Virus genome (UHGV): UHGV-0090252
Reading direction: 5' to 3' (one strand)
DNA: 64,000 nucleotides
Source of the DNA: a virus
Below are positions 56,818-60,002 of the stretch, piece after piece. How positions within the stretch are numbered: the stretch's first letter is position 1; the number at the start of each line of letters is the position of its first letter. Below the pieces are notes generated by a model, which had not been told where the DNA came from, did not search any database, and saw only the letters and a program-made list of their open reading frames with translations. Both the position numbers and the translations under genes were made by a program.

Positions 56818-59517
56818 ATGGAAAACGTAGATTTTAAAAACTTACATTTGGTTGGTGATACAGAGACTGATGGTTTACTCCTTGAGTTCACTAAAGTTCA
56901 CGTAATGGCTTTTGCAGACTATAAATCTGACGATGAAGAGCCTCCTGTATGGGTCTTTACAGATGAGCCTATCCTCGGTCACAAGTATACCAAGTACATC
57001 AAGGGCGGCTTACGTGAAGGTGTTGAATTTGCGTTAAATGCAAAACGTCTTTGCATCCATAATGGTCTCGGCTATGACTGGTGGGTTTTCAATCACATTG
57101 CACCTGATTTATGGAACTTTGATAATCCAAAATGTAAGCCGTGGAGTAATTTCTTTCAGGATTCTCTTATCCAGTCTCGCGTTCAGTGGATGGATAGACC
57201 AACTCCAAAGGGTTATAAAGGTGCTCATGGTTTGGCTGCATGGGGTGCTCGTGTTGGTGTTCGTAAACCAGAGATTGAACATTGGGGTGTGTGGAATGCA
57301 GAAATCTTCACTCGTGTTGTAGAAGATATCCGTATTAACGCCAAAACTAAACGGGCACTTGATAACGAGTATCTCAAGCTTAAGAAGTGTGGCATAGACA
57401 CTTATGAAACCTACATGCGAGCTAAAGAGACATCTTTCTGGATGAGCCAGCAAGCTATCAATGGTTGGAAAGCTGATAAAGAGCTTATGGAGTTCCATGT
57501 AAAGGAGCTTGACAAGTTGACTAATGAGCTTGCTTCAGAGGTTGAACCACATCTACCTCCAACTATTAAGACCAAAGGTAAAGTCACTGGAGAAGAGTTT
57601 GCAAAAGCTTGGAATGAGTATGTTGAAACATTTGGTCATGCAGATGGACTGAAAAGAATTACCAAGTACCCTAAGACAAAGTATCGTCAGCAGGTACGTA
57701 ATGGTGAGATGCAGACATACGAAATCAAACCATTTGGTAAGCCAACTACAAAGATTTTTAACATTGAAAAAAGGAATTGCTATACACCAACCAACTCCGT
57801 AACTGGTGAAGAGTACAAGGAAGGTTTTGTAGCAATGAAGGATGCTCGTGCAATTTGCAATGAGTTGAATGCAAAGATTGGTAAGAAATGCAAAGACTGG
57901 AAGCCAGTAAAAACAGTCAAAACTGTGAAGTACTATAACAGCCACGTTGTTAACCACTTTGAACTTGAGTCAAGTCGCTACACAGGTTTGATTGATGCAC
58001 CATATACACCAATTGAGTTTGAAGTTTCTCGTATGACTCAGGTAGCAGTTGTTAAAGACTACTTGAAATCAGTTGGTTGGATTCCAGATGACTGGAACTA
58101 CAAGAAAGACTCAGACGGTCGCCCTGTCAAAGTTTGTCGTTTCAAAGACAATAAAAAGATGATTACAAAGCATCCTAAGTGGCAGGAAATGGTTGAGCGG
58201 TGTGGTTTGAGTTATGTTGAACATGAAGGTGTACAGTACATTGAGCATAACTGGTCTGTAAAGAAGTACACAGATTTGCTTGAGCCTTGCTTAATCCGTA
58301 CTTCACCAAAGCTTACTGAGTCATCTTATGATACGATTGAAGGTGAGCTTGGACAGAAGATTGCTAAGTACTATACTTTGATGCACCGACGCAGAACTAT
58401 TGAGAACTCAAAGGATGATGAAAAAGGTTGGTTGAACCAGATTCGTCCTGATGGTCGCCTTAGTGCTGGCGCAATGGTGTTTGGTACTTCAACTGGACGT
58501 ATGACACAATATGGTATTGTAAACGTACCGTCTGGTGCTGCTGTCTATGGAGCACCTATGAGGGAAGTTTGGACTTGTGAAGATGGTACAGATATCATCT
58601 CCGTAGACCAAAACTCAGCCCAGCTAGTTCTTCTTTGTAACTTTATGGGTGATGAAGACTTCACTAAAGCGGTAACTGAGGGTAAAGAGTCAGTAGAGTT
58701 CACTAAGCAAGATGATGGTAGGTACTACTGTAAGCATCTTGACAAGTATCTTAACCCAGAAACTGACAAGTATCTGCGTTATGATGCTGAAAATGACCTC
58801 TATGAAGTCTACACAGGGACTGATGCGCATACACTGAACAGTATTTACTTTGGTCTGAACAAGGAAGAAGATATTGTTCGTTGTAGGGAGACACAGGATG
58901 AGGAACTTCTTCACGAGATTACAAAAGGTCGTAAGAAGAGCAAAAATGGCATCTACGCCCTGTTATTTGGAGCCGGAGACGAGAAGTTTGCAAAAACTAT
59001 CAAGGCATCATCTACGGAAGAAGGTGCATTGACTAAACAAACTTACTTTGTTCGTCTACCTAAGATTAAAAAGCTGCTTGATAGACTAGAGGAAGACTTC
59101 AAAGCAACTAAGAAAGCACTTGAAGAGGTTTTTGGAAAAACTTCTGCAATTGCCAAAGGTGGTTATATCAAAGTTGCTGGAGCGTGGTTATGGTGTAAAT
59201 CTCCACATAAGCTATTGAATTACACACTTATGGGCAGTGAGGCGCAGGTGCAGAATGAGGGTATTAACTTGGCAAACAGGGAACTCACAGAGCGCAAGCT
59301 TACAGTTCTAAATGGTAGGAAGCCCGCTATTGGTGCTAGGTGGGTCTGTAGTTACCACGATGAGGTCTCTTTAGAGGTTCCAACCAAAGATGTACCTGAT
59401 GTTAAGGAGATTATTGATAGAATGTATGGCCAAGCATCAAAAAATCTTGGATTAAATAGTAAGACGCTTGTTACAGGCACTGGTAAGGTAGGTAAGACAT
59501 GGTACGCCGTACACTAA
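56818..59517 (+). CDS. DNA polymerase, family A, with 3'-5' exonuclease domain
   Basis: 899 aa; exo motif VGDTETDGL, motif A-like ISVDQNSAQL, motif B KSKNGIYALLFGAG, motif C YHDE. Confidence 0.85.
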   Translation: MENVDFKNLHLVGDTETDGLLLEFTKVHVMAFADYKSDDEEPPVWVFTDEPILGHKYTKYIKGGLREGVEFALNAKRLCIHNGLGYDWWVFNHIAPDLWNFDNPKCKPWSNFFQDSLIQSRVQWMDRPTPKGYKGAHGLAAWGARVGVRKPEIEHWGVWNAEIFTRVVEDIRINAKTKRALDNEYLKLKKCGIDTYETYMRAKETSFWMSQQAINGWKADKELMEFHVKELDKLTNELASEVEPHLPPTIKTKGKVTGEEFAKAWNEYVETFGHADGLKRITKYPKTKYRQQVRNGEMQTYEIKPFGKPTTKIFNIEKRNCYTPTNSVTGEEYKEGFVAMKDARAICNELNAKIGKKCKDWKPVKTVKTVKYYNSHVVNHFELESSRYTGLIDAPYTPIEFEVSRMTQVAVVKDYLKSVGWIPDDWNYKKDSDGRPVKVCRFKDNKKMITKHPKWQEMVERCGLSYVEHEGVQYIEHNWSVKKYTDLLEPCLIRTSPKLTESSYDTIEGELGQKIAKYYTLMHRRRTIENSKDDEKGWLNQIRPDGRLSAGAMVFGTSTGRMTQYGIVNVPSGAAVYGAPMREVWTCEDGTDIISVDQNSAQLVLLCNFMGDEDFTKAVTEGKESVEFTKQDDGRYYCKHLDKYLNPETDKYLRYDAENDLYEVYTGTDAHTLNSIYFGLNKEEDIVRCRETQDEELLHEITKGRKKSKNGIYALLFGAGDEKFAKTIKASSTEEGALTKQTYFVRLPKIKKLLDRLEEDFKATKKALEEVFGKTSAIAKGGYIKVAGAWLWCKSPHKLLNYTLMGSEAQVQNEGINLANRELTERKLTVLNGRKPAIGARWVCSYHDEVSLEVPTKDVPDVKEIIDRMYGQASKNLGLNSKTLVTGTGKVGKTWYAVH

Positions 59518-60002
59518 CACTTCAAGACTACAAGGATAATTTTATTTACGACCCCGACAAAGGGGTCTTCTACAACAAGTATGACAGGAATAGACAAGCT
59601 AAAGCTGGGCAGATTGCAGGAGGTGCTGATGCTTACGGTTACAAAGTACTTAAATTCAAAGATGTCGTAATAAAAATTCATCACCTCGTTTGGTGGTTCG
59701 AACATGGTTACAAACCCACTAAGATGATAGACCACATTGATGGTAACAGAAGTAATAATCACATTTCTAATCTTAGGGAGACTGATAAATACGGAAATGC
59801 TCAAAATAGAGTAAAGCAGACGACTAACAAATCAGGTTACAAGGGTGTGTATTACTTTAAAGACTGCAATAAGTGGAGGGCAGCTATAACATGTAGAGGT
59901 AAAAGGACATCACTTGGTTTATTTGACACACCTGAAGAAGCCCATAAAGCTTACTGTGAAGCTGCTATTAAACTTCACGGAGAGTTTGCAAAACTAAGTT
60001 GA
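59499..60002 (+). CDS. HNH homing endonuclease with AP2-type DNA-binding domain
   Basis: 167 aa; IDHIDGNRSNNHISNLR HNH core and YKGVYYFKDCNKWRAAI AP2-like segment; start overlaps the polymerase 3' end. Confidence 0.7.
   Translation: MVRRTLTLQDYKDNFIYDPDKGVFYNKYDRNRQAKAGQIAGGADAYGYKVLKFKDVVIKIHHLVWWFEHGYKPTKMIDHIDGNRSNNHISNLRETDKYGNAQNRVKQTTNKSGYKGVYYFKDCNKWRAAITCRGKRTSLGLFDTPEEAHKAYCEAAIKLHGEFAKLS

What the first reader, a model, noticed from the sequence alone, without database searches (positions are those of the whole stretch)
59499..60002. Free-standing homing endonuclease genes next to replication genes
An HNH-AP2 endonuclease gene overlaps the 3' end of the DNA polymerase gene. A GIY-YIG endonuclease gene (49430-49927) sits upstream of the RNase H-like gene, and a weaker HNH-like ORF (37945-38460) sits beside the NAD cassette. 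Such genes are mobile and mark recent insertion sites; together with the nrdD intron they point to active selfish-element traffic in the replication module.
Basis: partly seen in the sequence, partly recalled or inferred. Interest (0 to 1): 0.4.

Follow-up and report, generated by a model that had tools for sequence, protein, structure and literature searches.

The report
Homing endonuclease gene behind phage polymerase
A small selfish nuclease gene sits directly behind the DNA polymerase gene of this Felix O1-like phage and travels with its own version of the polymerase's last 100 codons. This is a clear but ordinary, already annotated case, and the two other "endonuclease" genes in the finding are fixed core genes rather than recent insertions.

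Summary
The window is a Felixounavirus (Felix O1-like) genome. ORF 59499-60002 (+) is a 167-aa HNH_3 + AP2 protein that overlaps the family-A DNA polymerase gene by 19 nt. It is 100% identical to the annotated "homing endonuclease" of phage momo and is Felix O1 ORF95. This allele occurs in only 18 of about 263 related genomes. At least 23 relatives have an empty site. At least 138 others carry different HNH-AP2 alleles (44-50% aa identity) at the same site. The 18 carriers are also the only genomes with this window's version of the last ~100 polymerase codons, which include motif C. All other genomes are at most 70% aa identical there, while the 5' two-thirds of the polymerase gene stay ~97% identical. 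The nuclease gene is under purifying selection (dN/dS ~0.1). This fits intronless homing with co-conversion, a known phenomenon.

The GIY-YIG ORF (49430-49927) and the weakly HNH-like ORF (37945-38460) are present in nearly all relatives. The GIY-YIG ORF is also syntenic in Erwinia phages. Neither marks a recent insertion. The nrdD group I intron is real and sporadic.

The parts
59499..60002 (+). Free-standing HNH_3 + AP2 homing endonuclease gene (167 aa), the 'Felix O1 ORF95' allele. The stop codon TGA lies inside the conserved TTGACA of the downstream intergenic region.
   Evidence: Pfam and PHROG hits. HNH motif DHIDGNRSNNHISNLR...N aligns to I-HmuI. 100% identical to the annotated homing endonuclease of phage momo. 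Allele-specific part found in only 18 records. dN/dS 0.08-0.10.
59485..59493 (+). Shine-Dalgarno-like AAGGTAGGT, 5 nt before the endonuclease ATG and inside the polymerase coding sequence. No promoter or terminator separates the two genes, which suggests co-transcription and coupled translation (inference).
   Evidence: Sequence read directly. The promoter/terminator scan found nothing above shuffled expectation near the junction.
59218..59517 (+). Last ~100 codons of the DNA polymerase gene, including motif C (SYHDE, 59350-59364). This deeply diverged allele is inherited together with the endonuclease allele and is the presumed co-conversion or immunity tract.
   Evidence: At least 89.6% nt identity in the same 18 genomes and at most 78% in all others. 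At protein level, 18 records are 95-99% identical and 277 are 60-70% identical, with Erwinia phages no more distant than other Felixounaviruses. dN 0.36-0.40 with saturated dS against other alleles. 58-61% nt identity to fjerdesal and Alf5.
58561..59217 (+). Outer, moderately diverged part of the mosaic zone of the polymerase gene (motifs A and B). The left breakpoint varies: about 58561 against Alf5, fjerdesal and DR094, and about 59038 against ph2-2 and HY02.
   Evidence: Identity profiles: ~97% upstream of 58560, then ~77.5% against Alf5 and fjerdesal. Motif positions.
56818..59517 (+). Family-A DNA polymerase gene (899 aa), uninterrupted in this window.
60000..60053 (+). Conserved intergenic region (TTGACAAGGTGCTCATGG...) that forms the right edge of the insertion. 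In endonuclease-less phages it follows the polymerase stop codon after 6 nt. The record for phage AYO145A annotates a promoter at this junction.
   Evidence: Alignment A2, empty-site search, fjerdesal annotation.
49430..49927 (-). Conserved SegE-like GIY-YIG domain protein (165 aa) with no separate DNA-binding domain. A core gene of the Ounavirinae, not a sporadic homing endonuclease gene.
   Evidence: Pfam PF19835. Full-length in 262 of 298 records. Synteny in Erwinia phage Prophecy. Invariant motif residues. All homologues are 132-180 aa with one domain. Top Foldseek hit is the I-TevI catalytic domain but is not significant.
37945..38460 (-). Conserved 171-aa ORF (PHROG 3500) with a weak HNH-like motif (HHKPVTKGGEHHCANW...DNQKQG). 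A core gene of unknown function.
42050..42477 (-). ORF-less group I intron that splits nrdD. The two exon ORFs are 42444-43643 and 41183-42049. The intron ends given here are approximate.
   Evidence: Rfam RF00028 at 55.1 bits. NRDD halves. Sporadic among relatives, some of which carry an HNH ORF inside the intron.

Best explanation
ORF 59499-60002 is one allele of a multi-allelic, free-standing HNH-AP2 homing endonuclease locus that lies directly 3' of the DNA polymerase gene in Felix O1-like phages.

Shown here: the domain architecture, intact HNH catalytic residues, purifying selection, sporadic distribution, the existence of empty sites and of alternative alleles at the same site, and complete linkage of this allele with a deeply diverged version of the polymerase 3' end.

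Inferred: the gene is transcribed with the polymerase gene and translated from its own Shine-Dalgarno sequence inside the polymerase 3' end. In a mixed infection the enzyme would nick or cut a co-infecting genome that lacks this allele, somewhere in the polymerase 3' region or at the polymerase/downstream junction. Recombinational repair from the carrier genome would then copy the endonuclease gene together with 300 to ~950 bp of the polymerase 3' end. That co-converted tract would be refractory to the enzyme. On the right, exchange resolves within the shared 3' end of the AP2-coding region or in the conserved intergenic region. That would explain why all alleles share nearly identical last 69-190 nt.
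For: - Domains and motif.
- The allele is restricted to 18 records, and the same 18 carry this polymerase 3' allele.
- Polymerase identity stays ~97% up to 58560, then falls to ~77% and ~60% against Alf5 and fjerdesal, while carriers stay ~97% throughout.
- Empty site: polymerase stop, 6 nt, then the conserved intergenic region in fjerdesal and at least 22 other records. Some genomes have the same flanks with a ~500-bp insertion.
- Homologous but only 44-50% identical HNH-AP2 alleles occupy the same site and share an identical C-terminal ~25 aa. The right breakpoints are nested at 59811-59999.
- Alf5, of the same ICTV species as the carrier pinkbiff, has a different allele.
- dN/dS is 0.08-0.10 across dS 0.36.
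- The family is very common in phages: 2231 records, often several copies per genome.
- Published context: Felix O1 has six HNH copies (PMC3185647). HNH-AP2 homing endonuclease genes cluster next to DNA polymerase genes and sit at boundaries of genetic exchange, and cognate genes at one site can differ (PMC10448857).
Against: - No cleavage or homing has been shown for this protein or any Felixounavirus allele. The target site is unknown.
- Linkage could reflect a recombination-poor haplotype block rather than nuclease-driven co-conversion.
- At least 156 of ~263 genomes have some allele at the site, and selection on the protein is strong. This is also compatible with a retained, useful function.
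- Relatives of the I-HmuI type are nickases, so the break chemistry is uncertain.
Confidence: 0.73

Rival explanations
1. The gene is a domesticated or competition-oriented nuclease. It would be kept because it benefits the phage, for example by excluding markers of co-infecting relatives or by processing DNA during replication, and it no longer moves by homing.
For: Strong purifying selection. The site is occupied by some homologous allele in at least 156 of ~263 genomes. The gene is tightly coupled to the polymerase gene.
Against: At least 23 viable relatives lack any gene at the site. Alleles are swapped between very close relatives. Marker exclusion and homing are two outcomes of the same activity, so this explanation overlaps the main one.
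Confidence: 0.15
2. The endonuclease gene is a passive passenger. The polymerase 3' end plus the ORF would be an ordinary hypervariable module shuffled by general homologous recombination, without any contribution from the encoded nuclease, which might be inactive.
For: There is no direct activity evidence. Mosaicism is common in phage genomes. Breakpoints on the left are variable.
Against: The catalytic motif is intact and dN/dS is ~0.1. The sharp divergence is confined to the sequence adjoining the nuclease gene, while the rest of the polymerase gene is ~97% identical. The same pattern is described for phage homing endonuclease genes generally (PMC10448857).
Confidence: 0.08
3. The protein acts mainly as an AP2-type DNA-binding regulator, for example of the promoter-like region immediately downstream, and not as a nuclease.
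For: The AP2 domain is intact and its C-terminal part is the most conserved segment across alleles. The gene ends inside a conserved TTGACA element that one relative's record annotates as a promoter.
Against: The HNH residues (D78, H79, N87, N91, N103) are invariant across all alleles. The near-identity of the 3' end is at the nucleotide level (98.6%), which points to recombination rather than protein constraint. Phages without the gene are viable.
Confidence: 0.04

Closest known systems
HNH-AP2 homing endonucleases of phages, cyanobacteria and protists (Magnani et al. 2004, as cited in PMC10448857; 'IPA-HNH' genes of Barth, Dunham and Seed 2023)
   Same: N-terminal HNH plus C-terminal AP2 architecture. 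Free-standing gene next to a DNA polymerase gene. Cognate genes at one site differ between related phages. The gene sits at a boundary of sequence exchange.
   Different: This protein matches the canonical Pfam HNH_3 profile directly, whereas the ICP1 'IPA-HNH' proteins do not. No experimental data exist for the Felixounavirus alleles.
Felix O1 ORF95 (NP_944955, 'HNH endonuclease') and the momo and pinkbiff 'homing endonuclease' genes
   Same: The same gene at the same position: 98.6-100% nt identity, with the same 19-nt overlap with the polymerase gene.
   Different: No difference of substance. The published Felix O1 analysis only counts six HNH copies and does not describe the linked polymerase allele.
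I-HmuI (Bacillus phage SPO1, PDB 1U3E)
   Same: The HNH_3-type motif DH.DGN..NN...NLR...N aligns over residues 56-111.
   Different: I-HmuI is encoded inside a group I intron of a DNA polymerase gene and has a helix-turn-helix C-terminal domain. This protein is free-standing and has an AP2 domain. Overall similarity is low (E 3e-4).
Intronless homing by free-standing T-even endonucleases (SegE, SegF, SegG, MobE, Hef). Drawn from established knowledge; SegE and SegG references appear.
   Same: A free-standing endonuclease gene lies between or next to essential genes. Cleavage occurs in the neighbouring gene. Flanking sequence is co-converted. Different endonuclease genes can replace one another at one locus.
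   Different: The Seg enzymes are GIY-YIG proteins, and MobE and Hef are HNH proteins without AP2 domains. In those systems cleavage sites and co-conversion were shown experimentally; here they are inferred.
SegE-type GIY-YIG domain (Pfam PF19835), for ORF 49430-49927
   Same: Catalytic-domain motifs are present: GFVY, YIGKK, W..Y.SS, E112 and YN134-135.
   Different: It has no C-terminal DNA-binding domain, is fixed in nearly all Ounavirinae, and is syntenic across genera. It therefore behaves as a core gene and not as a mobile element.

Membership tests
Free-standing HNH-AP2 homing endonuclease (ORF 59499-60002) | HNH (beta-beta-alpha-metal) nuclease motif with a catalytic His and metal-binding Asn residues | tested here: met
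   Pfam HNH_3 E 9.9e-12, above its cut-off. Aligns to the I-HmuI motif. D78, H79, N87, N91 and N103 are invariant across 8 alleles.
Free-standing HNH-AP2 homing endonuclease (ORF 59499-60002) | C-terminal AP2 DNA-binding domain | tested here: met
   Pfam AP2 at 44.0 bits against a cut-off of 33.3. Matches plant AP2/ERF structures.
Free-standing HNH-AP2 homing endonuclease (ORF 59499-60002) | Own ORF, not inside an intron or intein | tested here: met
   Separate reading frame that overlaps the polymerase stop. No Rfam intron near 59-60 kb. Precise presence/absence between the polymerase stop and the intergenic region.
Free-standing HNH-AP2 homing endonuclease (ORF 59499-60002) | Sporadic distribution among close relatives, with empty cognate sites | tested here: met
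   18 of ~263 records carry this allele. At least 23 records have the uninterrupted junction. Other alleles occur elsewhere.
Free-standing HNH-AP2 homing endonuclease (ORF 59499-60002) | Flanking sequence co-inherited with the gene (co-conversion tract) | tested here: met
   The linked polymerase 3' allele is in the same 18 genomes, with a sharp drop in identity. This is comparative evidence only; the process itself was not observed.
Free-standing HNH-AP2 homing endonuclease (ORF 59499-60002) | Site-specific cleavage of the allele lacking the gene, and super-Mendelian inheritance in crosses | not testable with these tools
   Needs enzyme assays and phage crosses.
Seg-type GIY-YIG homing endonuclease (ORF 49430-49927) | GIY-YIG catalytic domain | tested here: met
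   PF19835 E 9.4e-28. Motif residues invariant in 12 homologues. The Foldseek top hit is the I-TevI catalytic domain but is not significant (E 1.2), and the model is poor for residues 107-147.
Seg-type GIY-YIG homing endonuclease (ORF 49430-49927) | Additional DNA-binding domain that gives site specificity | tested here: not met
   165 aa with the catalytic domain spanning residues 21-138. No second Pfam domain. All homologues are 132-180 aa and single-domain.
Seg-type GIY-YIG homing endonuclease (ORF 49430-49927) | Sporadic distribution among relatives | tested here: not met
   Full-length in 262 of 298 records. Same gene order in Erwinia phage Prophecy at 60% aa identity.
HNH endonuclease / homing endonuclease (ORF 37945-38460) | His-Me finger fold and motif | tested here: inconclusive
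   PHROG 2214 E 5e-6. IscB HNH region E 0.047. No Pfam HNH hit. The model has strand-strand-strand-helix at residues 89-120. The top Foldseek hit is an HNH nickase at E 3.4. Profile comparison with the HNH-AP2 alleles found no relation, and the PDB profile search gave no HNH hit.
HNH endonuclease / homing endonuclease (ORF 37945-38460) | Sporadic distribution among relatives | tested here: not met
   Full-length in 241 of 259 records. The family is restricted to Felix O1-like phages plus one Yersinia phage.
Group I intron (nrdD, 42050-42477) | Match to the group I covariance model above the gathering score, interrupting a conserved gene, and sporadic among relatives | tested here: met
   RF00028 at 55.1 bits against 50. 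Flanking ORFs are the NRDD N- and C-terminal halves. The full intron is in ~94 records, and other relatives match only the first ~90 nt of the query, the flanking exon. Splicing itself was not tested.

The most novel reading that the evidence does not exclude
The site behind the polymerase gene may be a multi-allelic 'nuclease plus immunity' locus. Each HNH-AP2 allele would travel with its own anciently diverged version of the polymerase motif-C / C-terminal region. That version would resist its own nuclease but be sensitive to the others. Competing alleles would then maintain balancing diversity in, and repeatedly create chimeras of, the catalytic domain of an essential DNA polymerase.

A second possibility that the evidence does not exclude: the fixed GIY-YIG protein is a domesticated nuclease with a core role in all Ounavirinae.
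Probability: 0.35. Interest if true: 0.4.

Novelty: already known. Interest (0 to 1): 0.17.

Why it matters
It matters little beyond annotation. The gene is already annotated in Felix O1 and in many relatives, and the behaviour of such genes next to polymerase genes has been described in other phages. The useful points are practical.

- The last third of the Felixounavirus polymerase gene is a mosaic driven by selfish elements. It should not be used for phylogeny or species assignment.
- Pairs of natural, near-isogenic phages now define a ready experimental system for HNH-AP2 homing and co-conversion: carrier, empty site and other allele, for example pinkbiff or momo, fjerdesal and Alf5, all of which grow on E. 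coli K-12.
- The "GIY-YIG homing endonuclease" and "NAD synthetase" labels on the conserved 165-aa protein are both doubtful.

Tried and rejected
- **Structure of the 171-aa ORF (37945-38460).** Model pLDDT was 74. The Foldseek PDB search gave no significant hit; the best was an HNH nickase at E 3.4. A profile search of PDB sequences returned only a repeat-inflated, per-domain non-significant resemblance of residues 11-57 to Staphylococcus protein A repeats, which I treat as chance. Profile-profile comparison with the HNH-AP2 alleles found nothing.
- **Structure of the GIY-YIG ORF.** Model pLDDT was 70, and the region holding E112 and N135 was poorly modelled. The I-TevI catalytic domain ranked first, but at E 1.2 this is not decisive. 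A PDB sequence search found nothing.
- **Zinc knuckle at the GIY-YIG N-terminus (C9, H14, C19).** Rejected, because the cysteines are not conserved.
- **Further endonuclease genes in the window.** A profile built from 8 alleles found no second HNH-AP2 ORF. A weak GIY-YIG-like hit at 29827-30384 turned out to be PHROG 600 with a sub-threshold SLT hit, a false lead.
- **Promoter/terminator scan around the polymerase-endonuclease junction.** Counts were no higher than in shuffled sequence, so there is no evidence of an independent transcription unit.
- **Polymerase-endonuclease fusion by -1 frameshifting.** Considered, but the 19-nt overlap contains no slippery heptamer. Not pursued.
- **NCBIfam.** No informative hits.
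Full report
**What the window is.** A 6.5-kb query around the finding matches 263 phage records, almost all Felixounavirus (Felix O1-like myophages of Escherichia, Salmonella and Shigella). The best matches are pinkbiff (98.2%) and momo. The region holds a family-A DNA polymerase gene (56818-59517), the ORF of the finding (59499-60002), several small ORFs and an ATP-dependent DNA ligase gene (61109-62212).

**The observation.** ORF 59499-60002 encodes 167 aa.
- It matches Pfam HNH_3 (E 9.9e-12) and AP2 (E 2.8e-11), both above their curated cut-offs, and PHROG 99 (E 3e-63).
- Against solved structures, residues 56-111 align to the HNH motif of I-HmuI (DHIDGNRSNNHISNLR against DHKDGNKDNNLSTNLR). 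Residues 111-162 align to plant AP2/ERF domains.
- The ATG lies 19 nt inside the polymerase ORF, in another reading frame. A Shine-Dalgarno-like AAGGTAGGT sits 5 nt upstream. No promoter or terminator signal separates the two genes.
- The gene is 100% identical to the annotated "homing endonuclease" of phage momo and 98.6% identical to Felix O1 ORF95 "HNH endonuclease".

**Distribution.**
- The allele-specific part of the gene (59518-59900) is found in only 18 records, at 90.6-100% identity.
- In phage fjerdesal the polymerase stop codon is followed after 6 nt by the conserved intergenic sequence TTGACAAGGTGCTCATGG..., which in this window begins at the endonuclease stop codon.
- A 132-nt probe across that empty junction matches as one uninterrupted piece in at least 23 records. 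It matches as two pieces about 500 bp apart in others.
- Other relatives (ph2-2, HY02, DR094, Mushroom, Si3, Alf5) carry, at exactly the same place, homologous HNH-AP2 genes that are only 44-50% identical in protein. Their last ~25 residues, and 69-190 nt, are nearly identical to this window's.
- Alf5 belongs to the same ICTV species as the carrier pinkbiff yet has the Mushroom-type allele.

The site is thus polymorphic in three ways: empty, this allele, or other alleles.

**The linked polymerase segment.**
- The 230 nt of the polymerase gene just upstream of the endonuclease ATG are at least 89.6% identical in 18 records and at most 78% identical in all others.
- Seventeen of those 18 records are listed and are all on the endonuclease-carrier list. 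The carrier missing from that listing, P219, was checked directly and has the same contiguous polymerase 3' end plus endonuclease gene.
- At protein level the last 99 residues are 95-99% identical in 18 records. They are 60-70% identical in 277 others, and Erwinia phages (64-66%) are no more distant than other Felixounaviruses.
- Against Alf5 and fjerdesal, nucleotide identity is ~97% over 56818-58560, ~77.5% over 58561-59217 and ~60% over 59218-59517. Against the carriers pinkbiff and Felix O1 it stays ~97% throughout.
- Left breakpoints vary: about 58561 in some comparisons and about 59038 against ph2-2 and HY02. Right breakpoints are nested inside the AP2-coding 3' end, at 59811-59999.
- The diverged zone starts just 5' of polymerase motif A (58606-58626) and covers motifs A, B (58930-58977) and C (59350-59364).
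- Between alleles the last 99 codons have dN 0.36-0.40 and saturated synonymous sites, so these are old alleles and not recent decay.

**Is the nuclease gene functional?** Within the allele, the window against P219 shows 29 synonymous and 12 non-synonymous differences (dS 0.36, dN/dS 0.08). The other pairs give 0.08-0.18. The HNH residues are invariant across all alleles. The protein is under purifying selection.

**Mechanism.** The pattern is the signature of intronless homing with co-conversion: a free-standing nuclease gene, empty sites, alternative alleles at one locus, a sharply bounded flanking tract that travels with the gene, and variable outer breakpoints. This mechanism is established for the T-even Seg, Mob and Hef genes. 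A broad phage survey reported that HNH-AP2 genes often lie next to DNA polymerase genes, that nuclease genes sit at boundaries of genetic exchange, and that cognate genes at one site may be different (PMC10448857).

The steps that remain inferred are the cleavage itself, its position, and the resistance of the linked polymerase tract. Rival readings are a useful domesticated nuclease, a passive passenger, or an AP2 regulator. They are less likely for the reasons given in their entries.

**The two other ORFs named in the finding.**
- *ORF 49430-49927 (-).* This is a genuine GIY-YIG domain protein (PF19835, E 9.4e-28). However, it is full-length in 262 of 298 records. It keeps the same order (exonuclease, this gene, small ORF, MazG-like gene) in Erwinia phage Prophecy at 60% aa identity. 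It keeps its motif residues across 12 diverse homologues. It also has no second domain, and all homologues are 132-180 aa. It is a fixed core gene. "Homing endonuclease" is not supported by its distribution, and the alternative database label "NAD synthetase" has no support here.
- *ORF 37945-38460 (-).* This ORF belongs to PHROG 3500 and is present in 241 of 259 records. Its family is confined to this phage group plus one Yersinia phage. Its HNH likeness remains unproven.

**Wider context.**
- The nrdD gene of the window is split by a group I intron. The intron is ORF-less here, carries an HNH ORF in Alf5, SP-012 and JH2, and is absent from many relatives.
- Relatives have selfish elements at sites that are empty in this window. 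One is a group I intron in polymerase motif B of phage Mushroom: Rfam 62.3 bits within the 383-bp gap that the Mushroom genome note described as separating two polymerase genes. Another is an HNH gene between the exonuclease and GIY-YIG genes in phage garuso.

**Novelty and score.** The gene, its annotation and the general phenomenon are all known. Felix O1 was reported to have six HNH copies (PMC3185647). What this analysis adds is the explicit link between this allele and a deeply diverged polymerase C-terminal allele, plus a set of natural phage pairs suited to testing it. I rate it as already known, with interest about 0.17.

Noticed in passing
window 61106-61113: The window lacks the 72-aa cysteine-rich small ORF found between the 101-aa ORF and the ligase gene in every relative fetched (Felix O1 ORF89; pinkbiff_124, mislabelled 'DNA ligase'). 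The ~186-bp deletion lies cleanly between two AAAATGAC repeats at the two start codons.
   Followed up: partly
window 42050-42477 (-): nrdD is split by a group I intron (Rfam 55.1 bits). The intron has no ORF here. The 100%-identical intron in Alf5, and those in SP-012 and JH2, hold an extra ~426 bp annotated as an HNH homing endonuclease. Many relatives lack the intron.
   Followed up: partly
L006 (Salmonella phage Mushroom) 175-479; equivalent to window ~58958-58963: The gap between the 'two DNA polymerase genes' of phage Mushroom matches the group I intron model at 62.3 bits and interrupts polymerase motif B. The genome announcement did not call it an intron. The window's polymerase gene is intron-less.
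   Followed up: partly
L011 (Escherichia phage garuso) 2995-3510; equivalent to window 49917-49927: Some relatives carry an HNH_3 (weak AP2) endonuclease gene inserted between the exonuclease and GIY-YIG genes. In the window these two genes overlap by 11 nt, so this second hotspot is empty.
   Followed up: partly
window 49430-49927 (-): A conserved single-domain GIY-YIG protein is labelled either 'NAD synthetase' or 'GIY-YIG homing endonuclease' in databases. Its fixation across the Ounavirinae, with intact motifs, suggests a domesticated nuclease of unknown role.
   Followed up: partly
window 37945-38460 (-), residues 11-57: The N-terminal segment LSFEERQEFIDSHQYDPSNSNHMVL resembles the Staphylococcus protein A repeat [24 protein letters not shown]. 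The per-domain E-values are 1-7, so this is probably chance.
   Followed up: no
window 3781-8669 (-): A cluster of 23 tRNA genes, typical of Felix O1-like phages.
   Followed up: no
public records GU169904 (Staphylococcus phage SA1), MG065668 and MG065645 (Campylobacter phages A126 and A145): Records named for unrelated hosts contain Felixounavirus sequence at 93-99% identity. These are probably contaminated or chimeric assemblies.
   Followed up: no
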